Shown piece by piece: positions 32,402 through 53,547 of a stretch of DNA of 64,000 nucleotides. The first letter of the stretch is position 1. Each line of letters opens with the position of its first letter. The DNA is from Thermoanaerobaculia bacterium. Its GTDB lineage: Bacteria; Acidobacteriota; Thermoanaerobaculia; Multivoradales; Multivoraceae. The position numbers and the translations under genes are program-made. The notes beneath the pieces were generated by a model that was not told where the DNA came from, did no database searches, and saw only the letters and a program-made list of their open reading frames with translations. The DNA is taken from contig OY761158.1 in the NCBI GenBank assembly GCA_963664405.1, forward strand, positions 512,001 to 576,000, given 5' to 3'.

Positions 32402-35217
32402 TTGAGCTCCACAGAACAGGTCCGCTGGGCTGACAAGATCGACCAGCTCATTGCACTCTCGGACGATGAGGAGCGCGAAGCGTTCTTTGCGAAGCATCCT
32501 GAAGTCTGTTGTTCGGAAGTGGCGCGACAGCTGGGTCGCAGAACCACGAAACTGGCACACATGGACATCCCCGCGGCAAGCCGTGCGGGTGAGACGCTTA
32601 GACAGCTTGGAGGTCTTTCTCAGGAGGAGCTCTATCTGAGGGCTACAGCCAGCGCACGCTGGCGGCTATCAGTCAGCTCCAGGGCGTCGACTATAACGTC
32701 CAGCTCAAACACCTAAGAGCGGCGATCAAGCACTTCGAGTCGGCCTCGAGAGAGGATGAGGTCGCGATCACTTGCTCCAACGGACTCATGGCGCTTGCGA
32801 TCCTAGGGGAGCACGATCTCCTGAAGGCTTGGGAGCAGCGAGCCAGACGCTATTTTGAATCGCACTCAGATCGGCTCCGCCTAGGCCGACTCGAGCTAAA
32901 TGTTGGCAACCTGGCAGGCTGGCAATGTAAATGGCAGAAGGCAGTAGACGCCTACCGCAAGGCGCACCGTCTAATGCTTCTCGCGGGCGCAGAGCAAAGT
33001 GACGAACTAGCCGCACTCGCCAACCTCTCTTTCTGCCTCCTGAAGCTTGGCGATCTGTCCGCGGCGACGTCACTGATCGAGAAGACTCTTACTATCGGCC
33101 AGGAAAATGGCTGGGACCTTGATGTCGCTACGGCAGAAGCACAGCTAGCGCGACTCAGGTACCTTCAGGGCGACTTCAGATCAGCCCTCGACCTCGCAAG
33201 AACGGCAAGAACACGCTATCGGCGACACGGTTCACTCCACAGCGAAGCCCAAGTATCCGTAGCGGAAGCGGACATTCTCCTCGCGATCTGCGCACCTGAA
33301 CAGAGCGAAGCGCTGGCGCATCGGGCTCTAAGGGATTTTGAGCAGATCGGCGTTCCACTTGAGATAGGTAACGCCCTTTTGAGACTCGGGCATTGTGCGA
33401 ATTGTAAGATGAGACACCGCCTCGCACTCCGCCTCTTTCGACGCGCGAAGAAGCTCTTCAAAGAATCTCACAGCACAGCGAAGTCACTGCTGGCTAGCTA
33501 CTACATCGCTGCAACACTTAACGATCTCGGTCGCTACTCGCATAGCCGGCGGGAGGCAGAACGGGTCCTCAGGACGCCCGATTCGCGTTCGGGAACCTTT
33601 CTTCCCGTTCAGTGCCGCCTTCTACTTGGAAAACTGGCGCTAGAGCGGGGAGACGTCGAGGATTGCATCGACAACGTCGACTTGGCGCTGCGTAACATTA
33701 ACTATCTCGACTCGGCGATGATGGAAGCCGAAGCCTTCCTCGTGCTAGGTGCGGCGAGAGAGCAAGCAGGCCTGCCCGAACAGGCATATCACTCATATCA
33801 GCGATCGGAACGCAGCCTCGAGGGCGCCCGAAGGTTTCTCTCGACCGGTGAACTAGCGATCTCCTTCCTAGGCGACAAGTTGGAGGTATACGAAGCTCTT
33901 TTTGACCTCGCCCGCAAGCAAGGCAACCTCAAGGAGGCGATCTATTTCGCAGAGAAAGCTAAATCGCGAACTTTGTCGGACCTGATGCGAGAAGAGGTCC
34001 AGGATGGGAGCGGCGGTAACCGGAACCGGGATCTGAGCCCTTCGCCACTGAACAGTAGGCTGAGAGGCTACGAGAAGAGGATTCGGGAGCTCGAGTTCTC
34101 GGACGAACGCGACGTACTCGGGCAAATTGCGAGGCTGCGGGAACTCGCGAGTGACCTAACCGGGACTGCAAGCGGAGACGTGCCGAGGAAAGCAGAGAGA
34201 TTATTTGGTAGGTCGTCGCCAACTGACCAGAAACGGCCGGAGAACGTCCGAGAGTGCCTGGGGAGCGGAGAAACCCTCCTCGAATATTTCTTCTCACGAG
34301 GAACCGTATTCGCAATCGTTGTCAGTCGAGAGAACCTACAAATCGTACCCGTATCGTCAGTCTCCCGCGCTGAGAAGGTCCACCGCCTCCTCATGGCGAC
34401 TCTCTCCAGGCGTGAGGCGGAGTCGCATCTCGACAGCAGCACGCACTACCTCCAGCAACTCTACGAGCTACTCTTGGCCCCAGTCCGGCCTCTCCTCGAG
34501 GGTCCGAATGTTGTCGTCGTTCCCCATGACTTTCTCCACCAGTTACCCTTCCACTCCCTGTTAGACGGCAGTTCGTACCTCGTCGACCAATTCAGCTTTA
34601 GCTACGCGCCAAGTGCAGAAAGCCTTCGATTAGCGCGCCTGAGACCTCCCAGTAAGAACGAGGGGATTGCGGTTTTCGGACGTTCAGATGCCACCGCTCC
34701 CAATATCGCTGACGAAGTCCGTTCCCTAAACGAGCTTCTTCCCAACTGTCGCGTCTTCCTCGATGGGGATGCGACACTAGAGCGACTGCAAGAGTCGTGT
34801 CGCGAGGCCCGGTGGATTCACGTCGCAGCGCATGGACTCTTTCGAGAGGCGGATCCGGCGGCCTCTTCGATGAAATTGGACGGTTTTCTACTTTCGCCCA
34901 ACAGACTGCGCAACCTCGAACTGCAAGCCGACCTAGTTGTCCTGAGCGGCTGCAGCACAGGCCGGGGAGTGATTCGAGGCGCGGATGAGATACTCGGCCT
35001 CTCGAGGAGCCTCCTCGAAGCGGGAGTTAGATCCACAGTTGTCAGCCTGTGGGACGTTGACGACGCGGTCACAGCGGCGCTGATGCCCTCGTTCTATCGA
35101 GCTCTCCAACAAGGAGAGTCCTACAGCGATGCGCTTCGAAAGGCAATGCTAGATATTAGGCAGGTCGCACCTCATGTGTCCTTGTGGGCACCGTTCGCTC
35201 TCATGGGAGCCGGCTGA
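32402..35217 (+). pseudogene. TPR-CHAT (caspase-like) protein 1, split by a one-base frameshift near 32640
   Basis: ORF 32402-32716 plus the frame open from 32602 to 35217 align end to end with the neighbouring paralog; CHAT motifs PHDFLHQLPFH, IHVAAHG, LSGCSTG, SLWDVDD and WAPF. Confidence 0.75.
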
Positions 35218-38176
35218 GCTGCTAGCGAGCTCTCCAAGTGTTAGACTCGCCCAAGACGGTTCCACACCCCCGCCGAACCGCCGCTGTGGCAAGTGCCGTC
35301 TACGTCATCCGCACGGACTTGCAGTGTCTTCAACGTCCAGCGCACCGGAGCTTGTCGCTCCTCTTGTCGAGAGCCTCCAGCGTCTTCCAGAAGGCCAAGT
35401 CGGAGAGTTTTTCCACAACAGAAAAGAGCTCGTCACCCGTTCGACTGTCGAGGATTTGACAAGAGAAGCGACGAGGCTGCTAAGAATTGACCTGGAACTC
35501 TCTCGGCGCCTCTCCGAAGCGTCACTCTGGCTCTCGGAACAACTCGACGACGACTACTCTCGCGCCAAAGCCCATCGAGCAGCCGCCAACCTAGCTCACG
35601 CTCAGGGTCGACACACGGAAGCCCTTGAGCGCTATCGCAGAGCCCGATCCCTCTTTGAACTAATCGGAAACCAAGAAGAGGCCGCGATCACCGCGAGTTC
35701 CTCGCTGCAGGCTCTCACTTACGTCGGCGATCACGAGGCTGCCTTCGCCGAAGCCAAATTCGCGCGAACAACGTTCGAGCGCGTTGGCGATCGCTTGCGG
35801 CTGGCCCGCCTGAACTTCAACTACGCGAACATTCTTCACCACAGAGACCGATGGGCCGAGGCGGCGGGCCATTACGAGGACGCCTATCGCGACTTTCTGG
35901 AAATTGGGGAGAAGGAGGACGTTGCGGTTTGTCTCGGCAACATGGCTGTTTGCCACCAAAAACAGCAGGACTTCGTACAGGCACTCGCCTTCTATGAACG
36001 AACCCGGGAGTTCTGCGAAGAGAACGGGCTGACTGTCCTAGTGGCCGACATCGACTACAACATCGCTTACCTCTACTACCTGCGTGGCGAATACACTAGG
36101 GCACTCGAGCTCTATAGGGAGGCGAGGGTCAAGCACCGAGAGCTAGGTGACCGACACCATGAGGATCTGTGTGCTCTCGACGAAGCAGAGATCTACCTTG
36201 AGCTGAACCTGACAGTCGAGAGCGCGGATCTCGCGGGCTCAGCGTTCGATGGTTTTCAGCAAAGGGGCCTTGTTCATGAAAGCGCGAGAGCACTGACGAA
36301 TCTTGCCTTGGCGGAAGGTCGCCAAGGTAAGTCTTTTCTCGCCCTAGAATTGCTGGGCCAGGCAAGAGATCTCTATTCACAAAACGAGAACCATGTTTCG
36401 GCGGCGCTTGTTGACCTGTACAAGGCCGGTGTGCTCTATCGAGCGGGACGTCCTTTCGAAGCGAGAAGCTTCGCGAGTCAAGCAGGATGCGGTTTCGGAG
36501 AAGCCGGCCTCGCCACCAAGCAAGCCGCGTGTGAGCTTCTGTTGACACGGATCTCTCTCGATGACGGCGACCTAACTGCCGCCGCAAAACACAGCCAGTC
36601 GGTACTAGAGAAACTCTCGCTGGTCGATGCACCCAGCCTCTCTCATCTTGCGTATCTGCTGCTGGGAGAGATCGAGGAGCGCCTTGGCAATGCCGTCGGC
36701 GCCAAGGAAGCTCTGACTCAGTCACACGAACAGCTCGAGAGAATCAGAGGTCCGATGCAGACCGAGGAACAGAAGGTCGGATTCCTCGACGACCAGCTCG
36801 TCGTCTACGAGAGTCTGGTCAGCGTGATCCTCCAAGGGGACGACTCTTCAGAAGAAAAGGAAGAGGCCTTTGCCTGGGCAGAGAAGGCAAAGTCCAGAAG
36901 CCTTGCAAATCTCCTCGCGTTTCGAGCTCATCTCCTGCCCGCTACCTCGCCCGGGCGCAGCAAGCTGGCAGACCAGGTCAGACAGCTCCGCGAAGAGCTC
37001 AACTGGTACTACCGGCAGATCAATCTCCAAGAAATGCGGAGCGACGCTCCCTCAACCGAAGGCGTCGAAGCTCTGCGTGCCTACAGCAGGCAGCAGGAAG
37101 GTCGCCTCATCCGCACCCTTTCGCAGTTCCAACAGGACGATCAGGAGTTTCGTTCGCTGCAGGAGGGTCTCACCACCGACCTCGAAACGATCAGGCGCGA
37201 CCTGTCATGGGGTACAACGCTGCTCGAGTACTACGTCGCTCGAGGAACGGTATACGCACTGATCGTCGATCACCGCACGATCGAGATCGTCCCGCTCACA
37301 CTCGAGAAGACGGTACGTGGGCTCAGCGGGCTACTGCGCTCCGCGCTCTCGCGGCGCCGCGATACGAGCGACCTGCGACATCGTAAGGAGTCCGCCGCAT
37401 TCGAGTATCTTGCGGCCCTGTACGAAGAGCTCGTGGCGCCAGTGCACGACCTCCTGCGGGGTCCATCTCTAGTGGTGATTCCACACAGTCTACTCTTCTA
37501 TCTTCCCTTCCACGCATTCCCCACCGGCTCCGGCTACCTCGCCGACGAATTCACGGTGTCGTACGCGCCAAGCGCAACAGTTTTTCATCTATCCAAGATC
37601 AAAGACCCGAGCGACGACGCTACTGGTACCGTGTTTTTCTGCCCCGATGACACGCGAACCGACCTTCTCGAGCTGGCGGCAGCTATCAAGAGACTCGAGC
37701 CCGATACTGAGCTGATACCTGGGCAGCAAGCGACCGGAGAGGCACTCCAAGCCAGGGCGAGCAAAGCTCGCTTCATCTATCTGTCGGCGCAGGGCCATTA
37801 TCGAGAAGACAATCCAATGTTCTCGTCTCTCGAAATGGGAGGCGGATCGATCCACCTTTTCGATCTCTTTCAGCTTCATCTGCGAGCCGACGTAGTGTCA
37901 CTGCTTGGCTGCGGACCAGGGCTGAACACACAAGGCAAGGGTGACGAAGTGGTGGGCCTGGTCCGCGGCCTCCTGTACGCGGGAGCTCGCTCCGTAGTGA
38001 CGACCGTTTGGGACGTCGAGGATTCCACCGCCGCCGAGTTCTCTTCCGCCTTCCACCGACACCTCCAGAACGGAGAGAGCAAGGCACTCGCGACCAGTCT
38101 CGCCATCACCGAGCTCAGGAGCAGGCACCCCGACCCCTACCACTGGGCTGGATTCGCGCTCTACGGTGAGGCCTAG
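35174..38176 (+). CDS. TPR-CHAT protein 2; catalytic His replaced by Gln (true start probably downstream, ~35320)
   Basis: Multiple TPRs, AEKAKSRSL, IYLSAQG, LLGCGPG, TVWDVED and HWAGF motifs. Confidence 0.85.
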   Translation: MCPCGHRSLSWEPAELLASSPSVRLAQDGSTPPPNRRCGKCRLRHPHGLAVSSTSSAPELVAPLVESLQRLPEGQVGEFFHNRKELVTRSTVEDLTREATRLLRIDLELSRRLSEASLWLSEQLDDDYSRAKAHRAAANLAHAQGRHTEALERYRRARSLFELIGNQEEAAITASSSLQALTYVGDHEAAFAEAKFARTTFERVGDRLRLARLNFNYANILHHRDRWAEAAGHYEDAYRDFLEIGEKEDVAVCLGNMAVCHQKQQDFVQALAFYERTREFCEENGLTVLVADIDYNIAYLYYLRGEYTRALELYREARVKHRELGDRHHEDLCALDEAEIYLELNLTVESADLAGSAFDGFQQRGLVHESARALTNLALAEGRQGKSFLALELLGQARDLYSQNENHVSAALVDLYKAGVLYRAGRPFEARSFASQAGCGFGEAGLATKQAACELLLTRISLDDGDLTAAAKHSQSVLEKLSLVDAPSLSHLAYLLLGEIEERLGNAVGAKEALTQSHEQLERIRGPMQTEEQKVGFLDDQLVVYESLVSVILQGDDSSEEKEEAFAWAEKAKSRSLANLLAFRAHLLPATSPGRSKLADQVRQLREELNWYYRQINLQEMRSDAPSTEGVEALRAYSRQQEGRLIRTLSQFQQDDQEFRSLQEGLTTDLETIRRDLSWGTTLLEYYVARGTVYALIVDHRTIEIVPLTLEKTVRGLSGLLRSALSRRRDTSDLRHRKESAAFEYLAALYEELVAPVHDLLRGPSLVVIPHSLLFYLPFHAFPTGSGYLADEFTVSYAPSATVFHLSKIKDPSDDATGTVFFCPDDTRTDLLELAAAIKRLEPDTELIPGQQATGEALQARASKARFIYLSAQGHYREDNPMFSSLEMGGGSIHLFDLFQLHLRADVVSLLGCGPGLNTQGKGDEVVGLVRGLLYAGARSVVTTVWDVEDSTAAEFSSAFHRHLQNGESKALATSLAITELRSRHPDPYHWAGFALYGEA

Positions 38177-38264: not shown

Positions 38265-38987
38265 ATGACTCTAGAGCTCTCGGCACCCGGCTCCTTAGTT
38301 ACCCGAGCGAGGGAGAAGAACCCTCGTCTCGCTCACCTCCAGCGAAGAAGGCTGGAGGAGGAGCTGAAGTCGGTAAAGACGGGGATCATGTGCGCGCTCA
38401 ATATGCTGCTGGATCTCAAAAATCTGCGCACTGGATTGCACGCGACACGCCTCGCCGAATGGGCGGTCCTCGCAGCCGAGAACCTAGGAGTGGATGAGAG
38501 TGAGCTCCGAGATATCGAGGCCGCATCTCTTTTACACGACATCGGCAAGATCGGTCTCCCGGATTCCATTCTGCTGAAGCCGGGAAAGCTCTCCGATGAA
38601 GAGTTCGCGATCACCAAGAAGCATCCCGAGTACGGCTGGGCAATCCTGAGATCGATTCCCGGACTCGAGAAAGCCAGCCTCTTGGTGCTGCATCATCACG
38701 AACGTTTCGACGGTAGGGGCTACCCCTCGGGCCTAGCGGGAGAGAACATCCCTCTCGGGTCTCGCATCGTGGCCGTCGTCGATGCCTTCGACGCCATGAT
38801 CTCGAGCCGCGCCTACCGAGACGCCCTGCCCCTCGAAGAGGTGCTTCGCCGCCTCGACGCCGACACCGGCAGTCAGTTCGACCCCAAGATCACGCCCTTC
38901 TTCATCGAGCTGTCGAAGGAGCATCTGCCCGAGCTGATGAAGCGCGACGAAGACGTCCCCGCCGGCCTGGCCCGGGTTCTGCCTTAG
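38265..38987 (+). CDS. Stand-alone HD-GYP domain protein (cyclic dinucleotide phosphodiesterase family)
   Basis: LLHDIGK, HHERFDGRGYP, VVDAFDAM and QFDP motifs. Confidence 0.9.
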   Translation: MTLELSAPGSLVTRAREKNPRLAHLQRRRLEEELKSVKTGIMCALNMLLDLKNLRTGLHATRLAEWAVLAAENLGVDESELRDIEAASLLHDIGKIGLPDSILLKPGKLSDEEFAITKKHPEYGWAILRSIPGLEKASLLVLHHHERFDGRGYPSGLAGENIPLGSRIVAVVDAFDAMISSRAYRDALPLEEVLRRLDADTGSQFDPKITPFFIELSKEHLPELMKRDEDVPAGLARVLP

Positions 38988-39192: not shown

Positions 39193-39246
39193 ATGTATCA
39201 GCCACACACGAAGACCGGTCATTCCGTCAGTCCAATCCTGGAGTAA
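39193..39246 (+). CDS. Peptide precursor P1: MYQPHTKTG-HSVSPILE (17 aa)
   Basis: Hand-translated; RBS AAGGAG at 39181; same KTG + 8-mer ILE end as neighbours. Confidence 0.75.
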   Translation: MYQPHTKTGHSVSPILE

Positions 39247-39280: not shown

Positions 39281-39448
39281 ATGAAGATCAAAACGGACCT
39301 CCGAGGCGGCTATTCGTCGCCCAAAGCCGATTCAGAACGGCCAAGCAACAACCCGCAGGAATACTGCATTCAACGCCCATCGTCGCTTCTTTGGCCCCCC
39401 TCCGCTATCACGCAGACGGGTAACTGCGTCGCGGCGATTCTCGAATAG
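39281..39448 (+). CDS. Peptide precursor P2 (55 aa): MKIKTDLRGG-YSSPKADSERPSNNPQEYCIQRPSSLLWPPSAITQTG-NCVAAILE
   Basis: Hand-translated; RBS AGGAG; double-Gly leader. Confidence 0.8.
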   Translation: MKIKTDLRGGYSSPKADSERPSNNPQEYCIQRPSSLLWPPSAITQTGNCVAAILE

Positions 39449-47072: not shown

Positions 47073-47076
47073 GCCC

Positions 47077-47472
47077 CTATCTCCGTCGGCAACGACGAAA
47101 GCTCGTTCGCACAAACTCTCGGCAGGCCTCTCCACACTGCATGCATCGCGGATTCCTCGGGTCGTAGCGCACTTCGCGCCTCGGAGTCTCGATCCGACAC
47201 AGTGTCCTCCCCGAAGTACCGCCTGGGGTACCCTGATGCGTCACTTTCTCTGCCCGCTCGCGCTGGCGCCGACGGTAGCGGGCCTGACGGGCGGCATGAC
47301 AATGCCGACCTCGGAGGCTTCGCTGGTACCGATGGCCGGCCGCCCGAGTCGATTCCCGACGAGCCACCAGAGCACAAGCCCGGCAGTAACGCTGGCCACG
47401 GTCACAGTGCGAGCACAGCGAGATACGCCGACGGCATCGAGCACAGTCGAAGAGTCGGTAGTCCGGTCGCAT
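47077..47472 (-). CDS. IS accessory Cys-rich (zinc-ribbon-like) protein
   Basis: CARC...CSHCDRGQRYCRAC...CMQC; lies directly upstream of istA. Confidence 0.65.
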   Translation of the reverse strand: MRPDYRLFDCARCRRRISLCSHCDRGQRYCRACALVARRESTRAAGHRYQRSLRGRHCHAARQARYRRRQRERAEKVTHQGTPGGTSGRTLCRIETPRREVRYDPRNPRCMQCGEACREFVRTSFRRCRRR

Positions 47473-47769
47473 CGTCGCCTCCCATTCGACGACGACCCCG
47501 ACTCTCTGCCATACTGCAAGCGCAGCTAATGCTGCGGTTTGGGGCAGAGCCCGGGGCGTTTTCTACTTCGCTTTCCCGGGCTCTCGCCGTCTCTGGTCGG
47601 CCTGCTCTATCAGAGCAGAGCCCGCACTGCAAAGCCCTACACCGACTCACGCATCTCTTCCGACCGCAAACACGCCGCCGGGACCACGCACCCGGACCGC
47701 CGTTCCGGCGGGATGATGCCGCCCTTCCTGAAGAAGGCCTAGCTTTCCCGCGGTCGCGAAGCCCTCAGC

Positions 47770-50478
47770 TCACTCCATCCCGGAAACTGCGCTCGCAGCC
47801 AACGGGATGCGCTTTCTCGCAGCCATCAACAGGCGCCAACGAGCACCCGACCACATCTCATTCCGTGCCACCTCGTCCGCCGTGAGCAACGCGGCGTAAC
47901 GACTCTCCGGCTGTCGCGCCAACTCCTCCGGCTTCCCCTGCTCAACAACTCGGCCACTTTCCATCACCAGCACTTTGTCGAACGCCAGAGTCTGCCGCAT
48001 GTCATGGGTGACGTAGAGCAGCGTCGCACCACTCCACAGTGCCCTACAACGCTGCAAGAGAAGGTTTCGATCGTGTCGATCAACCCCTCGAAATGGCTCG
48101 TCAAGCACGACGAGGCGCGCCTCGGGCCTCATCATGCCGCGCCCCAGCCGCACCCGCTGGCCCTCTCCTCCCGACACCAACCCTCCGCCTTCGCCGAGGG
48201 TGGTCTGCATGCCGTCGGGCAAGCTCTCGAGGACCTCCTTCAGCAACGCCGCTTCGATGACTCCACCGAACCCCTCCCGACGCGCGCTGTAACGAAGGTT
48301 CTCTACCAAAGAGCGATTCCAGATCCTCACACCCGGATCGACCCACGCGGTATCGGCGCGAAGGCGCTCGAGCCTGGCAGGGCCGAGCGGAGCATCATCG
48401 ACGAGCAGCTCGCCGGTGGCCGGCCGATACCAGCCGAGAAGAAGCCCCACCAGAGTCGATTTCCCAGAGCCCGACGGCCCGACAATCGCCACGTGCTCGC
48501 CCGCTTGCACCTCGGTCTGAACGTCACGCAAGATCGGGTGCCCGCCGACCACGACGCCAAGCTCACGCATCCCGATCGTAATCCCTCCACCGAGGCGGCC
48601 CTCCACAACATCCTCGGCGCCCGCATCCTCCTCAGGAGTCGACGCACCCAAGGGCTCGAGCAACCTCAGAGCGACATTGCGCTGCCACGGGTACCGACTC
48701 CACAAGGCGGCGATCTCCTGAGCCAGGGCCGGCAAGCTCAAGGCCCAATAGACGAGTAAGAGTACGGTGCCTGCCGATGCGGAACGCTGCAAATGGGACA
48801 GAACAAGAACGACCACCAGTCCAAAACCGACAAACTGCTGAAGTCCCTGGAGTGAGGCGATCAGGCGCTGCAGCCGAAAACCGGCTCGAGACCACTCACT
48901 GACCAGGATCTCGTGCTCTCTTTGCACCACACTCTCCGCCGAGTGAGCGCGGACCGCGACAAGGCCAAGCAGGCCGTCCAGGTAGAAGCGCGTCAGCGCG
49001 CCGGCGTGACTGCGCAAACGAAGATCGCGCTCAACCAGAGAGCGGTGCGCTAGGAGTGGAATTGCCAACGCTGCTACCGCGGCTCCGATCGCCCATGGCG
49101 CGCTGCGTGGGTCGAGCCAGATGATCCCGGCGGTCACCAGCACCAGCTCGAAGCTGGCCCTCAGGAGCTGGCCGACCAGAGGCGTCACATTACGCAGCTG
49201 ATGAATGGCGTGGCTGCGCTCAGCCATGTCCGAGCTCAAGCGGCTCGAAAAGTAACGCTCGCCCAAGGCGGGCAACTTGCGTAAGAAAGCGATCCGCAGG
49301 CGCAGCTCGAGGCGACGACCCAGACGCAATAGACCCTGCGCAACCGGAAAATCCAGTAGCAGCAGAAGGAAGGCCAGAGAGCCGACCGCCAACACAGCGC
49401 CAAGGCGCTGCACCGAAAGTTCCAGCTGAAGCCCGAGATCAAGTACCGACCGCAGTAGCAAAGCTTCGAGCAATACCCCGCCCGCCGCCACCGCGGTCGC
49501 GCCGATCAGCACCGAAGGCGCCAGCAAACCGTCCTCGCGTAGAAGCTCCAAGAGCTTCCGTCCCGGACTCGCTCCGGTCTCACGGAGGGTGGCTAAGACA
49601 CTCTCTGGGGCGACACCCGCGGCCTCGCCCCGCGACTCTCCCGCATTTGCGCCCGCCCCCTTCTCGCCGTCTCGACGTCCTTTGATCCTGACCAGTAGCG
49701 ATCCGACAAGAGCAAGATCGCCGCTCTGACCGTCAGCCCCAGCCTTCGCGGTCGCGGGCCTCACCGACCAATAGGTTTCCGGAACCTCCTCGGCACGCGC
49801 GCCTTCGAGAGCCGCCAGAGCCTGGCTACCTGCGTCGAGTCCCCCGGCCCTCACCAGTGCATCAACCATACGAGTGGACGCATCAAGCAGTGCGATCGAC
49901 TTCCAGCTCTCATCTTCGAAAGCATGATCCACGATCTGCGCCCCGCCGCCCTTGGCCACCCCGACCCGATCCAGACGCCGCGTAAGCGCCCCTACGAACT
50001 CATCCGACTCGGTCCACTGTCGCCAACCCTCGCTCGGAACCACGAACTCATGGGCGTAGACCTCTTCGAGAAAGTCTCTCGCATGCACCCAGCGGCGGCC
50101 GATGGACGGGTCCATGACCTGAAGGTACGAGCCATGGCGCCGCCATGCCACAACGAAGTGAGTAGACCCGTTGGGTAGGCTGGTCACAACGATGGCAGGC
50201 AGCGCGCGGGCCTCGGGAATCAACAGGTGATCGCGGGGCACCATCACCTGCTCGGCATCGAGCCCGAGACTGCAGGCCAATTCTTCGAGAGTGTCGATCG
50301 AAGTGCCGTCGACATCGGTCTGGCAGGCCTCGCGGAGGCGGCCATAGCTAGCGTCAATGCCGTAGCCCCCCAGAATTGCCTTGAGCACCGCAGGACCGCA
50401 GTCCATGGCGGAGCTCTGGATTACTTCGGGGACAACAAGCTTCCGGCTTTGAGACTTTGGCAGTCGGGCTACCATCAA
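47770..50478 (-). CDS. Peptidase-containing ABC transporter (PCAT; C39 peptidase + TMD + NBD); last 20 aa come from the IS end
   Basis: QSSAMDCG (catalytic Cys), THFVV (His), VMDP (Asp); GPSGSGKST, VSGGE, VLDEP and VTHD. Confidence 0.92.
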   Translation of the reverse strand: MMVARLPKSQSRKLVVPEVIQSSAMDCGPAVLKAILGGYGIDASYGRLREACQTDVDGTSIDTLEELACSLGLDAEQVMVPRDHLLIPEARALPAIVVTSLPNGSTHFVVAWRRHGSYLQVMDPSIGRRWVHARDFLEEVYAHEFVVPSEGWRQWTESDEFVGALTRRLDRVGVAKGGGAQIVDHAFEDESWKSIALLDASTRMVDALVRAGGLDAGSQALAALEGARAEEVPETYWSVRPATAKAGADGQSGDLALVGSLLVRIKGRRDGEKGAGANAGESRGEAAGVAPESVLATLRETGASPGRKLLELLREDGLLAPSVLIGATAVAAGGVLLEALLLRSVLDLGLQLELSVQRLGAVLAVGSLAFLLLLLDFPVAQGLLRLGRRLELRLRIAFLRKLPALGERYFSSRLSSDMAERSHAIHQLRNVTPLVGQLLRASFELVLVTAGIIWLDPRSAPWAIGAAVAALAIPLLAHRSLVERDLRLRSHAGALTRFYLDGLLGLVAVRAHSAESVVQREHEILVSEWSRAGFRLQRLIASLQGLQQFVGFGLVVVLVLSHLQRSASAGTVLLLVYWALSLPALAQEIAALWSRYPWQRNVALRLLEPLGASTPEEDAGAEDVVEGRLGGGITIGMRELGVVVGGHPILRDVQTEVQAGEHVAIVGPSGSGKSTLVGLLLGWYRPATGELLVDDAPLGPARLERLRADTAWVDPGVRIWNRSLVENLRYSARREGFGGVIEAALLKEVLESLPDGMQTTLGEGGGLVSGGEGQRVRLGRGMMRPEARLVVLDEPFRGVDRHDRNLLLQRCRALWSGATLLYVTHDMRQTLAFDKVLVMESGRVVEQGKPEELARQPESRYAALLTADEVARNEMWSGARWRLLMAARKRIPLAASAVSGME

Positions 50479-50683: not shown

Positions 50684-51316
50684 ATGACCGACTGGCAACT
50701 CACAGATCTCGTCGACTACCTCCGCGGCGCCAGCCATGCCGAGACCACGGAGGCAATCAAACAGGATCTCGCGGCCGGGAATCGAGAAGCCCGCGCCGAC
50801 CTCGACCTCTTCGGCGAAGTCGCAGCGGTGGTAAGCACCGACTTCTCCGACACCCCCCCCGAATCGGCCCTTCGAGCGGCAAGAGCCGCCTTCACCCTGA
50901 CCTCGCCCTTCAGCACCTCGGCACCTCCATTTCTAGAAACGCAAAAAATAGGGAACTCCGACGCGGCCTCGCAGACCGTCGGTTTGCGCGGACCGGCGAG
51001 AGATCACCAAGACCTGCACTTTCGCGGCGCAGGCTTCGATCTCGAGCTCAGCGTGGACATGCCGACCGAGAGCAGCGACGTCGTGATCGTCGGCCGCCTG
51101 TCGAAAGCGGCCTCGCAGCCGTGGAGCATCGATGAGGTGCCGGCTCTCCTCATCAGCCGCGACGAGCCCCTCGCCTCGACGGTGACCAACCGCTTCGGTG
51201 AGTTCCATGTGCAATGTCACAGCGAAGACAGCGTCGAGCTCCGCATTCTTGTCCCAGATCTTGGCCAGATTCGTATTCCCCTCGAGCTCCCCGAGTCGGG
51301 CGACGCCCCGTCCTGA
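50684..51316 (+). CDS. Putative soluble anti-sigma-like protein
   Basis: N-terminal LVDYLRG helix reminiscent of anti-sigma domains but with no HxxxCxxC; beta-rich C-terminus (TNRFGEF); precedes an ECF sigma. Confidence 0.5.
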   Translation: MTDWQLTDLVDYLRGASHAETTEAIKQDLAAGNREARADLDLFGEVAAVVSTDFSDTPPESALRAARAAFTLTSPFSTSAPPFLETQKIGNSDAASQTVGLRGPARDHQDLHFRGAGFDLELSVDMPTESSDVVIVGRLSKAASQPWSIDEVPALLISRDEPLASTVTNRFGEFHVQCHSEDSVELRILVPDLGQIRIPLELPESGDAPS

Positions 51317-51323: not shown

Positions 51324-51899
51324 GTGACGGATCCGCCCTCCTCCAGCTGGGATGACGCAGCCCTAGTTGACGCCTGCATCAGCGGCAGTCAGGAGGGCTG
51401 GGACGCACTAATTCTCAAGTATCAGAACCTGGTGTGGGCGATCATCCGGCGCAGCGGGGCAGCCAGCGGTGAGGAGGAGGACGCTTTTCAGGCGGTATGG
51501 CTCGACGTCTACAACGAGCTCGAGAACCTTCGCAGTCGAGAGTCTCTGCAAGCCTGGATCGCCACCGTCACCCGCCACAAGTGCTACCACTGGCGCGCCA
51601 AGCGTCGAAGACTACCGCAGGGCCTAGACGAGACCTGGGCCAACGCGATCCCCGACCAAAACGCACTTCCAGAGGAGGCTCTCGAGCGACTCGACCGAGA
51701 TCAAAAGATTCGGCTGGCCATTCATAGCCTGCAGCCGGAGTGCCGGGAGCTCCTGGCCCGGCTCTTCCTCAGTGATCCTCCACGGCTCTACCGCGAGATT
51801 GCCGAAGAGCTTGGAATGGCGATCGGGTCGATCGGCTCGCTGCGGTCCCGATGTCTCGAGAGGCTCAAGGAGGAGCTGGTTCGCCAGGGGCTGCCGTAG
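51324..51899 (+). CDS. ECF-family RNA polymerase sigma-70 factor
   Basis: DAALVDAC...EDAFQAVW...AWIATV (region 2); YREIAEELGMAIGSIGSLRSRCLERL (region 4). Confidence 0.9.
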   Translation: MTDPPSSSWDDAALVDACISGSQEGWDALILKYQNLVWAIIRRSGAASGEEEDAFQAVWLDVYNELENLRSRESLQAWIATVTRHKCYHWRAKRRRLPQGLDETWANAIPDQNALPEEALERLDRDQKIRLAIHSLQPECRELLARLFLSDPPRLYREIAEELGMAIGSIGSLRSRCLERLKEELVRQGLP

Positions 51900-52218
51900 G
51901 CTCGCCCAAGAAGTCCTCCGCCAGGATCGCCGTCGCCGCTTCGAGCTCGGACGCCGGCACCACCACGTGAACGGACCCCAGAGCGCCAAAGGTCACCGGC
52001 TCCTGATGATAGAGCAGAGAGTAGACCTTGGAGCGAACACCGCGACTCCGCAGAAGACCCGCCACCAGCGCAGCATCGTGCTCCGTGCCCTCGGTTCTCA
52101 CCACCTCCCACGCTTCGTCCGCGGGCCGCTCCGGCAGAGTCTCGACCAAATCGACGAGGCAGTCTGGGCAACGATCGATGCCGGATCGGAACTCGCCATC
52201 ACAGACCGGACAGAACAA
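51865..52218 (-). CDS. Zinc-ribbon + DUF2007-like small protein
   Basis: FCPVCDGEF...CPDC; AALVAGLLRSRGV. Confidence 0.7.
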   Translation of the reverse strand: MFCPVCDGEFRSGIDRCPDCLVDLVETLPERPADEAWEVVRTEGTEHDAALVAGLLRSRGVRSKVYSLLYHQEPVTFGALGSVHVVVPASELEAATAILAEDFLGEPTAAPGEPAPP

Positions 52219-52383: not shown

Positions 52384-53547
52384 CTAGGCTCCCTCTACCA
52401 GTCTCCCGACCGACCTCAATACCAGTCCCAACGGTGACGAGCTCTCGACCTCGACCTCGAGCTCACCCGGCAATCCATGCTCGAGCACGATCCCGGCAGG
52501 CACGCCCGGTTCGATACTGAACTCCACTCGGACCCTGCCATCGCGGGCCTCTGAGTCTACGTTCGATACTCGAGCCTCGACGCTCCCGTAATGGGTCCAT
52601 GGGTACCCATCGAGCCGTAGGCGCGCACGTTGCCCCGGTCGGATGCGACCGACGGCCTTGCCGGGCTCGAACTCGGCCACCACGACATGCCCCCTGTCAC
52701 TCTCAGGCACGATCGCACAAAGCTGATCGCCCGCCGCAACGTAGGCGCCCTGGAGAAGAGACTCCGCGATCTTAGCGACCGTACCGCTGACGGGCGCTCT
52801 GATCGAGCGTTGCCCGAGCTCTACCTCTAGCCGCTCCTCGGTTCTTTCAGAAGTGTCGATCGAGCCGCGCAACTGACTTGCCTGCCGGTGCAGACCCTCG
52901 ATGTCACTCCGGCGATCCCTCTCCTCGATTCGCAGTTGCTCCTGACGCCGCGCCACCGCCGTACGACGCTGCGACTCGATCGCCTGAGCCATCGCCATCT
53001 CCGACTTCGCCTTCTCGAGATCTCGAACCGATTGCACCCCCTGCTCTTTCAGTTCCAGGACCTTGGCGTGATTGGAGACCGCGAACTCTCTCGCCGCCTC
53101 GGCTTCGTTCAAAGAGGCCTCCAGCTCCTCTACCTCCAGGCGGGCCGCGTTCTTCAACTGCGCCAGCGCCTTCTCCTCGGAAGCGATCTCGCCGCTGAGG
53201 TCGGTCAACTCCGATTCGCTCCCTCTACGCGCGGACTGCCTCTCGGCCAATTGCAGCTCCTCGGTGCGGGGGTCCAACTCGAGCAGAAGGTCACCGGCTT
53301 CGACTCGTCTCCCCAGCGAGATGTGAGTCGCGACAACTCTTCCAGATACGGGCGCGGCAACCGCATGGCTCGCGCCACGAACCTCCACCCGAGCCGTCTC
53401 ACTCACTTCGTAGAGAGAGATGCTGGCGAAGAAGAACCACAAGCCCCAGGCGGTCAGGAGCAACAGCGAAGCCACCAGCATGACTGCTGAGAACCGGAAC
53501 GAATCCGCCTCTAAGGAGCGCGCAGAGCGTGAGAATGGGATCGCCAT
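52384..53547 (-). CDS. HlyD-family membrane fusion/secretion adaptor
   Basis: N-terminal TM helix, lipoyl halves VAAPVSG / IRAPVSG, coiled coil, IRPGQRARLRLDGYPWTHYG. Confidence 0.9.
   Translation of the reverse strand: MAIPFSRSARSLEADSFRFSAVMLVASLLLLTAWGLWFFFASISLYEVSETARVEVRGASHAVAAPVSGRVVATHISLGRRVEAGDLLLELDPRTEELQLAERQSARRGSESELTDLSGEIASEEKALAQLKNAARLEVEELEASLNEAEAAREFAVSNHAKVLELKEQGVQSVRDLEKAKSEMAMAQAIESQRRTAVARRQEQLRIEERDRRSDIEGLHRQASQLRGSIDTSERTEERLEVELGQRSIRAPVSGTVAKIAESLLQGAYVAAGDQLCAIVPESDRGHVVVAEFEPGKAVGRIRPGQRARLRLDGYPWTHYGSVEARVSNVDSEARDGRVRVEFSIEPGVPAGIVLEHGLPGELEVEVESSSPLGLVLRSVGRLVEGA

What the first reader, a model, noticed from the sequence alone, without database searches (positions are those of the whole stretch)
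32402..53547. Candidate new system: peptide export coupled to TPR-CHAT proteases, HD-GYP and an anti-sigma/ECF sigma switch
Seen: with the IS removed, the order is TPR-CHAT1, TPR-CHAT2, HD-GYP, nine peptides, then (opposite strand) ABC2 and PCAT, then anti-sigma-like and ECF sigma, then DUF2007-like and HlyD. Known: TPR domains bind short peptides in RRNPP quorum-sensing receptors and C-terminal carboxylate clamps; in type III-E CRISPR the TPR-CHAT Csx29 cleaves Csx30, which binds a sigma factor. Inferred: the octapeptides could be ligands that control the TPR-CHAT pair, which cuts the anti-sigma-like protein to free the ECF sigma. That would be a peptide-gated proteolytic signalling or kin-recognition circuit. 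The linkage is only positional so far.
Basis: inference. Interest (0 to 1): 0.88.

Follow-up and report, generated by a model that had tools for sequence, protein, structure and literature searches.

The report
Octapeptide-sensing TPR-CHAT sigma switch
This acidobacterial locus is a rearranged and recently damaged copy of a widespread, undescribed signalling system in which short exported octapeptides appear to be sensed by a cytoplasmic TPR-CHAT protease that controls an anti-sigma/sigma pair.

Summary
The gene order is as described, and all nine small genes are real. Each ends in an octapeptide directly behind a (K/Q)(A/T)G processing site.

Comparative genomics turns the positional link into a functional one.
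- ECF sigma, TPR-CHAT and the 210-aa protein ("p210") are neighbours across Acidobacteriota. They often sit with an Opp oligopeptide importer, an HD-GYP enzyme and a secreted S8 subtilase.
- p210 is predicted to bind the sigma as an anti-sigma factor does (score 0.80, best control 0.00).
- The S8 subtilases carry exact tandem octapeptides (QSxxxI[LV][ED]) of the same format as the window's peptides (QAVAAILE, SHLNHIME).
- In the window lineage the S8 source is replaced by mini-precursors with a 9-10-residue leader. These are exported by a PCAT/ABC2/HlyD cassette that is itself widespread and normally has no CHAT or sigma partner.

Peptide binding to the TPR and cleavage of p210 remain inferred.

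This copy is damaged. A nested IS pair cuts the end of the PCAT gene, and CHAT1 is frameshifted; a roughly 98%-identical strain has both intact. CHAT2 lacks the catalytic His.

The sigma/CHAT/subtilase neighbourhood was noted before, for group ECF54. The octapeptides, Opp, the anti-sigma role of p210 and the PCAT route turned up in none of my literature searches.

Verdict: new variant of a known kind; high interest.

The parts
32402..35217 (+). TPR-CHAT1, split by a frameshift near 32630. The N-terminal piece is 32402-32716; the main ORF is 32788-35217. Catalytic His682/Cys722 are intact.
   Evidence: Pfam CHAT E 5.3e-62. Frames and N-terminal homology. The dyad aligns to Csx29. A related strain lacks 2 nt at 32630.
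35174..38176 (+). TPR-CHAT2, the closer relative of the sigma-linked canonical CHAT. It has Gln873 in place of the catalytic His; Cys913 is kept. The start codon is uncertain.
   Evidence: Pfam CHAT E 7.6e-38. Alignment and dyad. 44% identity to the L131 CHAT. Groups with other dyad-defective, HD-GYP-linked CHATs with support 90/86.
38265..38987 (+). Stand-alone HD-GYP phosphodiesterase, with no receiver domain and no TM segment.
   Evidence: PF13487 E 2.6e-42. 63% identical to its G006 orthologue. Orthologues sit next to TPR-CHAT. No TM segment.
39193..39246 (+). Peptide 1, 17 aa: MYQPHTKTG|HSVSPILE.
   Evidence: sequence
39281..39448 (+). Peptide 2, 55 aa: leader MKIKTDLRGG at the N-terminus, ending in ...TQTG|NCVAAILE.
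39480..39533 (+). Peptide 3, 17 aa: MKNLVLKTG|NTVAAILE.
39575..40001 (+). Peptides 4-8: five tandem 18-aa genes, MN(V/I)KTNVKAG|SHLNHIME, at 39575-39631, 39667-39723, 39760-39816, 39853-39909 and 39945-40001.
40009..40179 (+). Peptide 9, 56 aa: leader MKIRTDIKAG at the N-terminus, ending in ...FKTG|QAVAAILE.
40256..42424 (-). ABC2: ABC exporter half without an active peptidase domain. It is now cut off from the PCAT gene by the IS pair.
   Evidence: ABC_tran. NHLM_micro_ABC2 94.7 bits, below the cut-off of 709. Weak likeness of its N-terminus to the C39 region, E 0.019. TM segments present.
42434..47831 (-). Nested insertion. An IS21-like element (42434-42462 plus 44466-47831; IstA 45564-47135, IstB 44804-45613; target duplication GGCGC) is interrupted by an ISAzo13-like element (42458-44470; transposase 42482-43876).
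   Evidence: Pfam. About 21 and about 20 identical genomic copies. Ends and target duplication. A related strain joins 42428 to 47832 without the insertion.
47770..50478 (-). PCAT (C39 peptidase + TMD + NBD). The native sequence is 47837-50478; the last ~20 codons of the present ORF come from the IS.
   Evidence: Peptidase_C39 E 1.6e-20. NHLM_micro_ABC1 192 bits, below the cut-off of 853. The tail matches IS copies. In-silico excision gives 901 aa overlapping the ABC2 start.
50684..51316 (+). p210: soluble anti-sigma-like protein. It has four N-terminal helices (residues 6-73), a disordered linker with invariant Arg102, and a C-terminal beta-sandwich (106-200).
   Evidence: No Pfam or NCBIfam hit. 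AF2 model, pLDDT 77. HxxxCxxC motif in 5 of 16 homologues. Predicted complex with sigma 0.80 against 0.00. Invariant columns.
51324..51899 (+). ECF sigma factor, 191 aa from GTG 51324 (the longest ORF starts at 51198).
   Evidence: TIGR02937 76.4 bits against a cut-off of 42.9. Start chosen by comparison with 12 orthologues. It is the best match in its genome to the canonical sigma, E 8e-53 against 4e-11 for the next.
51865..52218 (-). DUF2007-like small protein downstream of HlyD. Membership of the system is doubtful.
   Evidence: PF09413 E 0.004, below the cut-off. No tblastn match in related loci.
52384..53547 (-). HlyD-type periplasmic adaptor of the exporter, with one N-terminal TM segment.
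   Evidence: HlyD_3 E 1.9e-16. TM segment at residues 16-46. A HlyD gene lies next to the PCAT gene in 68 of 73 orthologous loci.

Best explanation
The region is a rearranged member of a conserved acidobacterial peptide-signalling system.

Core of the system: an ECF sigma factor, a soluble anti-sigma protein (p210) and a cytoplasmic TPR-CHAT protease. Common partners are an Opp-type oligopeptide importer, an HD-GYP phosphodiesterase and a secreted S8 subtilase. That subtilase carries exact tandem octapeptides, QSxxxI[LV][ED].

In the window lineage the subtilase is absent. The octapeptides are instead encoded as the C-termini of nine mini-precursors. The PCAT cuts them behind (K/Q)(A/T)G and exports them together with ABC2 and HlyD.

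Proposed circuit, all steps inferred:
1. The free octapeptides accumulate outside the cell.
2. They are taken up again. Relatives carry a dedicated Opp for this; none was found in this genome.
3. They bind the TPR part of TPR-CHAT.
4. The active CHAT paralogue cuts p210 in its flexible linker; the invariant Arg102 is a candidate site.
5. The sigma is freed.
6. HD-GYP couples the state to c-di-GMP.

In this strain the circuit is probably impaired. A nested IS pair hits the PCAT/ABC2 junction, CHAT1 is frameshifted and CHAT2 lacks the catalytic His.

What is shown by computation: gene content, conservation, the shared octapeptide format, the predicted sigma-p210 complex and the damage. What is inferred: re-import, TPR binding, p210 cleavage and the role of HD-GYP.
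For: 1. Conserved module.
- p210 homologues were found in 11 of 401 class genomes.
- Around 12 of them CHAT is adjacent in 9, sigma in 9, S8 in 10 and OppA in 7. The typical order is OppD-F-B-C-A, sigma, CHAT, p210, S8.
- TPR-CHAT homologues were found in 19 of 401 phylum genomes.
- Of 20 such loci, sigma lies within about 2 kb in 18, p210 in 10, OppA in 4, S8 in 4, HD-GYP in 2 and PCAT in 0. L163 holds the full set: Opp, sigma, CHAT, p210, S8, HD-GYP.
- The CHAT dyad is intact in 10 of 10 canonical operons.

2. p210 looks like an anti-sigma factor.
- Predicted complex score 0.80, best control 0.00. The three runs agree in at least 93% of contacts, and the partner's pLDDT is at least 81. That mark was reached by 58 of 80 solved complexes and 2 of 110 mismatched pairs.
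- p210 residues 5-79 contact sigma regions 18-64 and 125-191.
- An HxxxCxxC motif is present in 5 of 16 homologues.

3. Shared octapeptide.
- S8 genes beside CHAT/p210 carry exact repeats: QSTTTILE x6, QSMAAILE x5, QSTAHILE x3-4, QSITAIVE x3, QSVTAIVE x2, GTVAAIVE x2, QSFASILE x2, QRTRAILG x2-3, QSTAAILD x3 and QSTGAILD x15 or more.
- 119 of the 120 best S8 homologues hold an exactly repeated 8-mer.
- The window peptides end in QAVAAILE, NTVAAILE, NCVAAILE, HSVSPILE and SHLNHIME x5. For comparison, L130 has QSVAAILE and L156 has TRTLNIME.

4. Independent joins of the peptide/PCAT cassette to the CHAT/HD-GYP module.
- G006a: OppB, OppC, SBP_bac_5, CHAT, CHAT, HD-GYP, peptides, ABC2, PCAT.
- L126: OppDFBCA-CHAT, then HD-GYP followed by ATVTIIIS precursors, then HlyD-PCAT.
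- L127: HD-GYP followed by QSTIAIVF and QTVTVIVE precursors.

5. The exporter recognises this leader. MK(V/I)K(S/T)NVKAG mini-genes lie beside HlyD-PCAT-ABC2 in 58 of 73 orthologous loci by pattern; at least one of these (L093) looks like a chance match.

6. No S8 of this subfamily was found in the window's genome at E<=1e-20. This fits replacement of the S8 peptide source.

7. Precedent: the TPR-CHAT protease Csx29 cleaves Csx30, which inhibits an ECF sigma (PMC10028731; passages read).
Against: - No binding or cleavage has been tested.
- The PCAT cassette normally stands alone. Of 73 loci, 0 have the HD-GYP, 1 has sigma/p210 and 3 have CHAT. No recurrent regulator was found in their flanks.
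- Canonical sigma-CHAT-p210 operons have no leader-type mini-genes.
- G030 holds the PCAT cassette and the sigma-CHAT operon on different contigs.
- In G006 the sigma-p210 pair is on another contig from the CHAT/peptide loci.
- The HD-GYP-linked CHATs often lack the dyad: window CHAT2 Q/C, G006 S/F, L126 R/C, L129 G/A, L130 R/A, G240 T/C. In those loci proteolysis cannot be the output.
- No close OppA was found in this genome.
- The promoter-like motif conserved upstream of p210 in canonical operons is not found in the window.
- The sigma-p210 pass may reflect likeness to solved sigma/anti-sigma complexes. Foldseek gave only generic beta-sandwich matches for p210, E >= 6e-3.
- Of 17 metagenome contigs with the HD-GYP, only 7 show a CHAT. 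Most of the rest are 1-2 kb, but L128 and L135 are clear negatives.
- Many of the compared genomes are kin, so the counts overstate independence.
Confidence: 0.55

Rival explanations
1. Nutrient-peptide sensing, not self-signalling. The Opp/sigma/TPR-CHAT/anti-sigma module would sense imported peptides in general and switch on secreted proteases. The QSxxxILE repeats would be the subtilase's own autoprocessing or substrate-mimic sites. The window's exported octapeptides would act on proteases, as decoys or inhibitors, or would be by-products rather than dedicated signals.
For: - A promoter-like motif (TATATTTTT-N14-CCCTA) lies upstream of p210-S8 in most canonical loci. Second copies lie upstream of an M43-like secreted metalloprotease (L160) and a prolyl-oligopeptidase-like gene (L158).
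- Secreted peptidases are the recurrent cargo of the operon.
- One octapeptide copy sits at the end of the S8 pro-region, where subtilases autoprocess (the point about subtilases is from general knowledge).
Against: - The octapeptide is conserved as an exact unit of 8 residues in up to 15 or more head-to-tail copies.
- In the window lineage it is encoded on its own, bounded precisely by a processing site and a stop codon, in a genome where no such S8 was found. That points to the free octapeptide as the functional entity.
- A dedicated Opp sits next to the receptor.
Confidence: 0.2
2. Chance neighbourhood. An independent short-peptide export cassette (bacteriocin-like or other) landed next to remnants of an ECF sigma/CHAT module, and the two have no functional coupling.
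For: - The PCAT cassette stands alone in 72 of 73 orthologous loci with respect to sigma/p210, and in all 73 with respect to the HD-GYP.
- The locus is rich in IS elements and pseudogene-like damage.
- The window, G001 and G006 share flanking genes (ThuA, SelD fusion), so their synteny is inherited rather than independent.
Against: - The window peptides share the format and C-terminal I-(L/M)-E motif with the S8-embedded octapeptides of the canonical sigma/CHAT operons.
- HD-GYP followed by octapeptide mini-genes recurs in different arrangements: L126, L127 and G006.
- All four non-exporter genes here (sigma, p210, CHAT, HD-GYP) are members of the canonical operon, as in L163.
Confidence: 0.12
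3. Conflict or defence system. The CHAT proteases would be abortive-infection effectors, the HD-GYP a cyclic-nucleotide signal degrader, and the peptides bacteriocins or kin-discrimination toxins.
For: - CHAT proteases act in type III CRISPR and CBASS-associated islands. The DdvA/DdvS anti-sigma carries a TPR-CHAT domain and controls a defence island (PMC11506125, abstract).
- Weak PADLOC hit of CHAT1 to BovA, E 1.8e-8.
- Frequent decay and IS load.
Against: - No PADLOC system-level match; the hits are only domain-level and weak.
- No CRISPR, CBASS or nuclease genes in the window flanks, which are metabolic and housekeeping.
- Unmodified 8-mers are short for bacteriocins (general knowledge).
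- The conserved partners are an Opp importer and secreted peptidases.
Confidence: 0.06

Closest known systems
Type III-E CRISPR 'Craspase/CASP' module: Csx29 (TPR-CHAT), Csx30 and an ECF sigma (CASP-sigma/RpoE)
   Same: A TPR-CHAT protease is encoded with an ECF sigma and a sigma-binding inhibitor. The published model is that cleavage of the inhibitor relieves sigma inhibition (PMC10028731, passages). CHAT1 aligns to Csx29 across the His/Cys dyad.
   Different: There are no CRISPR genes here. The NCBIfam Csx29 model scores 40-42 bits against a cut-off of 300. p210 is a 210-aa anti-sigma-domain plus beta-sandwich protein, not Csx30. The proposed trigger is an imported octapeptide, not target RNA.
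DdvA/DdvS of Myxococcus xanthus (transmembrane anti-sigma with a periplasmic TPR-CHAT domain)
   Same: An ECF sigma is controlled by an anti-sigma linked to a TPR-CHAT with an incomplete His-Cys site (PMC11506125, abstract).
   Different: In DdvA the anti-sigma domain, TM helix and TPR-CHAT are one polypeptide, and the CHAT part is periplasmic. Here they are separate proteins without TM segments. No Opp, S8 or octapeptides are reported for DdvA in the parts I read (abstract and searched passages).
ECF54-type genomic context (ECF classification)
   Same: A review states that ECF54 members have conserved neighbours with carboxypeptidase, subtilase and CHAT domains, and that proteolytic control without an anti-sigma was proposed (PMC8999054, passage). 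That matches sigma, CHAT, p210 and S8. Two of 16 p210 homologues give weak CarboxypepD_reg hits.
   Different: ECF54 was defined in Actinobacteria (PMC7826278, passage). I could not test whether this sigma belongs to the group, because no ECF-group models were on hand and Huang et al. 2015 is not held. Here the 'carboxypeptidase-like' neighbour is predicted to be the anti-sigma. Opp, HD-GYP and the octapeptides are not mentioned in the passages I read.
RRNPP quorum sensing of Firmicutes (Rap/Phr, NprR/NprX, PlcR/PapR)
   Same: Recalled from general knowledge: short linear peptides are released outside, matured by secreted proteases including subtilisin-type enzymes, re-imported by Opp and bound by a cytoplasmic TPR receptor. 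Here there is a dedicated Opp next to a cytoplasmic TPR protein, peptide genes and S8 proteases.
   Different: The receptor output is a CHAT protease or pseudoprotease with a sigma/anti-sigma pair and an HD-GYP, not an HTH or phosphatase domain. The host is a diderm phylum. The peptide is embedded in the protease itself or exported by a PCAT. The only RNPP_C hit is faint, E 0.0074, in one G006 CHAT.
NHLP/Nif11-type export triad (NHLM_micro_ABC1, ABC2, HlyD) and ComAB-type PCAT export of double-glycine peptides
   Same: The architecture is the same: a C39-peptidase ABC exporter, a second ABC half without an active peptidase, and a HlyD adaptor. Cargo genes are adjacent and are cut behind a small-residue pair.
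   Different: All three NCBIfam equivalog scores are far below their cut-offs: 192 against 853, 94.7 against 709, and 37.6 against 156. The leader is only 9-10 residues, with (A/T/G)G rather than a 15-25-residue GG leader (the usual length is recalled). The cores are 6-8 residues, with no modification enzyme in the conserved neighbourhood.

Membership tests
CHAT protease (PF12770, caspase-like) | CHAT domain match above the Pfam cut-off | tested here: met
   CHAT1 scores 210.3 bits and CHAT2 131 bits against a cut-off of 24.
CHAT protease (PF12770, caspase-like) | Catalytic His-Cys dyad | tested here: inconclusive
   CHAT1 has His682/Cys722, aligned to the Csx29 dyad, but the gene is frameshifted. 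CHAT2 has Gln873/Cys913, so the feature is not met for CHAT2.
Csx29 (type III-E TPR-CHAT, NF041237) | Score at or above the curated cut-off, and association with Cas7-11 | tested here: not met
   41.7 and 40.2 bits against a cut-off of 300. No cas genes in the window.
HD-GYP c-di-GMP phosphodiesterase | HD_5 domain with HD and GYP motifs | tested here: met
   PF13487 scores 144.9 bits against 27.2. HDIGK and HHERFDGRGYP are visible in the translation. Enzyme activity and substrate were not tested.
ECF (group IV) sigma factor | sigma2 and sigma4 regions; TIGR02937 above its cut-off | tested here: met
   76.4 bits against 42.9. Sigma70_r2 E 3.5e-10 and r4 E 3.1e-4.
ECF54 group | Placement in the ECF54 clade or model | not testable with these tools
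   No ECF-group models were on hand. Only the genomic context (CHAT, subtilase, carboxypeptidase-like neighbour) matches the review's description.
Anti-sigma factor with an anti-sigma domain (ZAS / zf-HC2 type) | N-terminal helical anti-sigma domain that binds sigma2 and sigma4 | tested here: met
   Prediction only. The score is 0.80 against a best control of 0.00, and the interface runs from p210 residues 5-79 to sigma 18-64 and 125-191. There are four N-terminal helices. The pass may reflect likeness to solved complexes.
Anti-sigma factor with an anti-sigma domain (ZAS / zf-HC2 type) | HxxxCxxC zinc motif or a PF13490 match | tested here: not met
   The window's p210 has no Cys motif and no Pfam hit. 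The motif is present in 5 of 16 homologues. PF13490 matches 1 of 16 at E 0.046.
PCAT (peptidase-containing ABC transporter) | N-terminal C39 domain with the catalytic Cys, plus TMD and NBD | tested here: met
   Peptidase_C39 scores 73.7 bits against 22, with ABC_tran also matched. The MDCGPAVL motif is in the translation. TM segments are present. The C-terminal ~20 residues are replaced by IS sequence.
NHLP export system (TIGR03796/03797/03794 equivalogs) | Scores at or above the curated equivalog cut-offs | tested here: not met
   192 against 853.3, 94.7 against 709.4, and 37.6 against 156.2.
Double-glycine leader peptides | Recognised GG-leader family model, with a leader of about 15 or more residues ending in GG/GA/GS | tested here: not met
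   The 55- and 56-aa precursors have no Pfam or NCBIfam hit. The 17-18-aa ones are too short to scan. The leader is 9-10 residues ending in (A/T/G)G.
RRNPP receptors | TPR peptide-binding domain fused to an HTH or phosphatase output | tested here: not met
   The output domain is CHAT. There is only a faint RNPP_C hit in one relative, E 0.0074.

The most novel reading that the evidence does not exclude
Acidobacteria would possess a family of peptide quorum-sensing circuits built on a protease-receptor.
- A secreted subtilase serves as a polyprotein of its own autoinducer, with up to 15 or more head-to-tail QSxxxILE/D octapeptides.
- A dedicated Opp re-imports the octapeptide.
- A cytoplasmic TPR-CHAT binds it and cuts a soluble anti-sigma factor.
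- This frees an ECF sigma that re-induces the anti-sigma/subtilase operon.
- An HD-GYP ties the switch to c-di-GMP.

The window would show an evolutionary swap of the signal source, from protease-embedded repeats to PCAT-exported mini-genes. It would also show two peptide classes matched to two CHAT paralogues, one active and one a pseudoprotease.
Probability: 0.3. Interest if true: 0.9.

Novelty: new variant of a known kind. Interest (0 to 1): 0.8.

Why it matters
If true, this would be a peptide-based cell-cell signalling system in Acidobacteriota, an abundant phylum that is hard to study.

- It would add a new receptor type to peptide sensing: a TPR domain fused to a caspase-like protease instead of a DNA-binding or phosphatase domain.
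- It would give a CRISPR-independent relative of the Csx29-Csx30-sigma switch.
- It would explain ECF sigma groups said to lack an anti-sigma factor.
- It would explain a very common but unremarked feature of a large subtilase subfamily: 119 of the 120 closest homologues carry exact repeated octapeptides.

The hypotheses are directly testable with synthetic 8-mers and three or four purified proteins.

Separately, the 10-residue-leader mini-genes next to HlyD-PCAT-ABC2 are an unannotated peptide family spread over several phyla. They are invisible to ordinary gene callers.

Tried and rejected
- **Foldseek (pdb) on the AF2 model of p210.** It gave only generic Ig-like sandwiches, E >= 6e-3, and said nothing on the N-terminal helices.
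- **ESM Atlas for p210.** The nearest clusters are 'hypothetical protein'. One cluster has zf-HC2 in 27% of its members, which is a lead only.
- **Sigma-dependent promoter in the window.** A PWM built from 11 canonical p210-upstream sites found no window hit of 8 bits or more, while Markov shuffles reach 6.5-14.2. A pattern search found only a partial GGGTATATTTCG at 52306 (+) and a weak look-alike upstream of HlyD at 53595 (-), which I do not count.
- **Alignment of the peptide-upstream regions** of five loci showed no clear shared element.
- **Sigma-70 scan.** It found no + strand site upstream of the peptides. A TTGCAT-N18-TACAAT that I saw by eye at 39018-39047 fails the tool's criteria.
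- **Recurrent neighbours of the 73 PCAT loci.** They are lineage synteny only (SIS, DUF4159, secretin, glycosyltransferase); no receptor or regulator recurs.
- **CHAT hits near the PCAT gene** in L043, L083 and L100. I listed their ORFs but did not resolve them.
- **PADLOC.** Only weak domain-level hits.
- **RNA evidence.** No RNA holder was listed among the 24 runs, so expression could not be assessed.
- **Literature searches that found nothing.** Five leader strings, six octapeptide strings, and CHAT + oligopeptide permease + sigma factor + tetratricopeptide. These cover only the held library of open PMC papers and bioRxiv.
- **Papers and earlier findings not available.** Huang et al. 2015 on ECF54 is not held. 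Supplements, where ECF-group contexts are tabulated, were not seen. Earlier findings of this scan were not open to the session.

Full report
**1. What is in the window**

The window is bases 512001-576000 of a single-contig 6.78-Mb genome. Its relatives in public collections are labelled Thermoanaerobaculia, phylum Acidobacteriota.

- two TPR-CHAT genes and a stand-alone HD-GYP gene;
- nine small + strand ORFs;
- on the other strand, an ABC exporter half (ABC2) and a peptidase-containing ABC transporter (PCAT);
- a 210-aa ORF without any Pfam or NCBIfam hit ("p210"), followed 7 nt later by an ECF sigma gene;
- on the minus strand, a weak DUF2007-like ORF and a HlyD adaptor.

The flanks are metabolic and housekeeping genes. 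A hydropathy scan finds no TM segment in CHAT1, CHAT2, HD-GYP, p210, sigma or the DUF2007-like protein.

**2. The peptides**

All nine ORFs end in (K/Q)(A/T)G followed by exactly eight residues and a stop. The octapeptides are HSVSPILE, NCVAAILE, NTVAAILE, SHLNHIME (five tandem copies) and QAVAAILE.

Seven of the nine start with a 10-residue leader of the type M-(K/N)-(V/I)-(K/R)-T-(N/D)-(V/I/L)-(K/R)-(A/G)-G. In the two long precursors (55 and 56 aa) a second K/Q-T-G site precedes the C-terminal octapeptide.

**3. The exporter cassette is widespread and normally stands alone**

PCAT orthologues were found in 8 of 41 related genomes. A scan of one genome per species kept 80 loci, of which I used 73 (L035-L107, 40-61% identity). 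They come from Acidobacteriota and also from MAGs labelled Planctomycetota, Verrucomicrobiota, Myxococcota and Proteobacteria. The last seven loci (L108-L114) were weak ABC-domain matches and I dropped them.

By tblastn, of the 73 loci:
- 68 have HlyD next to the PCAT gene and 72 have ABC2;
- 3 have any CHAT hit;
- 0 have the HD-GYP;
- 1 has sigma and p210, and that one is the syntenic relative G001.

A pattern for the leader finds mini-genes in 58 of the 73; at least one of these (L093) looks like a chance match. Most are 16-aa ORFs, MK(V/I)K(S/T)NVKAG plus a hexapeptide such as QSVWGA or RTMWGA, often in two or three copies directly upstream of HlyD.

So the leader is real, is tied to this PCAT family, and is much shorter than the double-glycine leaders I recall. 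The NHLP-type equivalog models score far below their cut-offs. No recurrent regulator is found in the flanks.

**4. Sigma, p210 and TPR-CHAT form a conserved module**

*p210 neighbourhoods.* p210 homologues occur in 11 of 401 sampled genomes of the class. Around 12 of them, CHAT is adjacent in 9, sigma in 9, an S8 subtilase in 10 and an OppA-type binding protein in 7. The usual order is OppD-OppF-OppB-OppC-OppA, sigma, TPR-CHAT, p210, S8.

*Phylum sample.* TPR-CHAT homologues occur in 19 of 401 sampled genomes of the phylum. Of 20 loci fetched, sigma lies within about 2 kb in 18, p210 in 10, OppA in 4, S8 in 4, HD-GYP in 2 and PCAT in 0. L163 reads Opp, sigma, CHAT, p210, S8, HD-GYP.

*Orthology and catalytic residues.* The window's sigma is by far the best match in its genome to a canonical sigma, E 8e-53 against 4e-11 for the next. 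The CHAT dyad is intact in 10 of 10 canonical operons.

*HD-GYP neighbourhoods.* HD-GYP orthologues occur in 5 of 401 class genomes and on 17 metagenome contigs. All seven genome loci show a TPR-CHAT within 5 kb (window, G006a, G006b, G240, G348, G375, G406). Seven of the 17 contigs do. Most of the other contigs are 1-2 kb, but L128 and L135 are clear negatives.

Several of these genomes are kin, so the counts are not independent events. The gene orders differ between lineages, however, and that is the usual sign of functional coupling.

**5. p210 looks like an anti-sigma factor**

- The AF2 model (pLDDT 77) has four N-terminal helices, a low-confidence linker and a beta-sandwich.
- Five of 16 homologues carry HxxxCxxC at the expected place. 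Pfam gives only weak hits: CarboxypepD_reg in 2 of 16, zf-HC2 in 1 of 16.
- The co-fold of sigma with p210 scored 0.80 against a best control of 0.00. The runs agree in at least 93% of contacts and the partner's pLDDT is at least 81. That mark was reached by 58 of 80 solved complexes and 2 of 110 mismatched pairs.
- In the model, p210 residues 5-79 lie between sigma regions 18-64 and 125-191.
- Sigma/anti-sigma complexes have been solved, so the pass may partly be from memory. It shows likeness, not binding.
- Arg102, at the end of the disordered linker, is invariant in all 16 sequences. I mark it as a candidate cleavage site by inference only.
- A profile search of 5.8 billion proteins lists 35 relatives. 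None has a Pfam domain on record, and those that carry a source name are called 'hypothetical protein'.

**6. The octapeptide is shared (the key result)**

The secreted S8 subtilases encoded beside CHAT and p210 carry exact, often head-to-tail, octapeptide repeats. These sit between the catalytic Asp and His and in the pro-region:

| Locus | Repeat |
|---|---|
| L131 | QSTTTILE x6 |
| L129 | QSMAAILE x5 |
| L130 | six variants, including QSVAAILE |
| L149/L150 | QSTAHILE x3-4 |
| L157 | QSITAIVE x3 |
| L158 | QSVTAIVE x2 |
| L154 | GTVAAIVE x2 |
| L160 | QSFASILE x2 |
| G348/G375/G406 | QRTRAILG x2-3 |
| L161 | QSTAAILD x3 |
| L162 | QSTGAILD x15 or more |
| L156/L159 | TRTLNIME x1 |
| L163 | two near-copies |

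Of the 120 best homologues of the L131 subtilase (6364 at E<=1e-40), 119 hold an exactly repeated 8-mer. The consensus is Q-S-x-x-x-(I/V)-(L/V)-(E/D).

The window's octapeptides have the same length and the same C-terminal I-(L/M)-E. QAVAAILE differs from L130's QSVAAILE at one position, and SHLNHIME shares LNxIME with TRTLNIME.

In the mini-genes the octapeptide is bounded by a processing site and the stop codon. That argues the free 8-mer is the functional unit.

Mini-genes of this kind follow the HD-GYP gene in three other arrangements:
- G006a: QSIDCIKE x4 plus QAVSAILE, with OppB, OppC and SBP_bac_5 upstream of the two CHATs;
- L126: ATVTIIIS x3, between HD-GYP and an OppDFBCA-CHAT operon, with HlyD-PCAT on the other side;
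- L127: QSTIAIVF x2 plus QTVTVIVE.

No subtilase of this subfamily was found in the window's genome at E<=1e-20. Canonical operons hold no leader-type mini-genes. The simplest reading is a swap of the peptide source.

**7. State of this copy**

- *IS insertion.* An IS21-like element with a 5-bp target duplication sits in the last ~20 codons of the PCAT gene. It is itself interrupted by an ISAzo13-like element. Each has about 20 identical copies in the genome. Removing them in silico gives a 901-aa PCAT whose end overlaps the ABC2 start.
- *CHAT1.* It is split by a frameshift near 32630.
- *Evidence from sequencing runs.* Contigs of three runs from two studies match the window exactly, including the IS ends. 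A contig of a fourth run, from a third study and a related strain (48 differences in 3.1 kb), joins 42428 to 47832 without the IS and lacks 2 nt at 32630, which puts CHAT1 in frame. Its depth is only 2.6-3.4.
- *Catalytic residues.* CHAT2 has Gln for the catalytic His. The HD-GYP-linked CHATs of G006, L126, L129, L130 and G240 also lack one or both dyad residues. They group together in a tree with support 90/86, below the starred level.
- *Opp.* No close OppA was found in this genome.
- *Relatives.* G006a's PCAT has an in-frame TAA. In G006b the CHAT2 and HD-GYP matches are broken across reading frames while the PCAT and ABC2 matches are unbroken.

**8. Mechanism**

I propose an octapeptide-sensing switch:
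1. peptide release, by S8 self-processing in canonical loci and by PCAT/ABC2/HlyD here;
2. uptake by Opp;
3. binding to the TPR of TPR-CHAT;
4. cleavage of the anti-sigma p210;
5. release of the ECF sigma;
6. HD-GYP as a second output.

A conserved promoter-like motif lies upstream of p210-S8 in 11-13 of 15 loci. Second copies lie before an M43-like peptidase gene and a prolyl-oligopeptidase-like gene. This would give autoinduction in canonical loci. The motif is not found in the window.

Where the CHAT is a pseudoprotease, the output must be non-proteolytic, for example control of the HD-GYP. The window and G006a each have two CHAT paralogues and two octapeptide classes, while L126 has one of each. 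The sample is too small to be more than a hint.

**9. Comparison with what is known**

The logic resembles four known cases:
- Csx29-Csx30-sigma of type III-E CRISPR (PMC10028731, passages);
- the fused DdvA/DdvS pair (PMC11506125, abstract);
- RRNPP peptide sensing (recalled from general knowledge);
- the ECF54 neighbourhood. A review records that ECF54 sigmas have carboxypeptidase-, subtilase- and CHAT-domain neighbours, and that proteolytic control without an anti-sigma was proposed (PMC8999054, passage; PMC7826278, passages).

So the sigma/CHAT/subtilase neighbourhood is not new. The following were found in none of my searches: the octapeptide repeats, the Opp link, the anti-sigma reading of p210, the HD-GYP link, and the PCAT-exported mini-precursors with a 10-residue leader. 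Those searches cover only the held open-access library, and supplements could not be seen.

**10. Verdict**

The functional link among all parts is much stronger than positional. The biochemical steps are untested. The general co-occurrence of PCAT with CHAT and sigma fails.
- Novelty: a new variant of known kinds.
- Interest: high.

Noticed in passing
L041-L107 (for example L054:8421-8750, L068:8415-8739): A large, apparently unannotated family of 15-25-aa genes. Each has the leader MK(V/I)K(S/T)NVKAG plus a hexapeptide, mostly xxxWGx, often in 2-3 tandem copies directly upstream of HlyD-PCAT-ABC2. They occur in Acidobacteriaceae, Bryobacteraceae and Pyrinomonadaceae, and in MAGs of other phyla. 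L038 has 14 different copies in a row.
   Followed up: partly
L037:1555-1848 and 4664-4909; L073:8416-8607: Multi-core precursors in which leader-like KxKTxxKAG units alternate with 'xxLNHNxTxxR'-type cores within one ORF, in MAGs labelled Verrucomicrobiota and Myxococcales.
   Followed up: no
L162 around 10450-11946 (G771): An S8 subtilase whose pro-region holds 15 or more head-to-tail copies of QSTGAILD in three arrays. The arrays are separated by a repeated ~16-residue spacer.
   Followed up: partly
L149-L160, upstream of the p210 homologues (for example L156:9773, L159:9777): A conserved AT-rich promoter-like motif in GC-rich genomes: (A/T-rich)-N9-SSTATATTTTTC-N14-(C)ACCCTAnA. It has a fixed spacing and lies 34-130 nt before the start codon. 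Second copies precede an M43-like metalloprotease gene (L160:9510) and a prolyl-oligopeptidase-like gene (L158:12029).
   Followed up: partly
window 42434-47831 and genome-wide: Two IS families have recently expanded to about 21 and about 20 copies, all listed at 100% identity, in this 6.8-Mb genome. One is nested in the other here. A further rve-type transposase gene lies at 26550-28004.
   Followed up: partly
G006:C1:1-10200 (L021): A second copy of the CHAT2/HD-GYP/peptides/ABC2/PCAT block in the same genome. The CHAT2 and HD-GYP matches are broken over several frames, and some peptide genes are degraded. PCAT and ABC2 are unbroken.
   Followed up: partly
window 50684-51316 (p210 residues 94-102): Arg102 (with Gly100 nearly invariant) is conserved in all 16 p210 homologues, at the end of the low-confidence linker between the helical and beta-sandwich domains.
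   Followed up: no
window 48900-50060 (PCAT residues ~140-330): The PCAT and its orthologues are about 900 aa. They carry a stretch of about 190 residues between the C39 domain and the first TM segment that matches no family.
   Followed up: no
L043:16358-19409, L083:20362-22631, L100:21390-22673: CHAT-domain genes with an intact dyad lie 2-9 kb from the PCAT cassette in three unrelated MAGs. L083 and L100 also hold 37-40-aa leader-type peptides ending in ...VYVPPVSRC(A/T)G(I/A).
   Followed up: no
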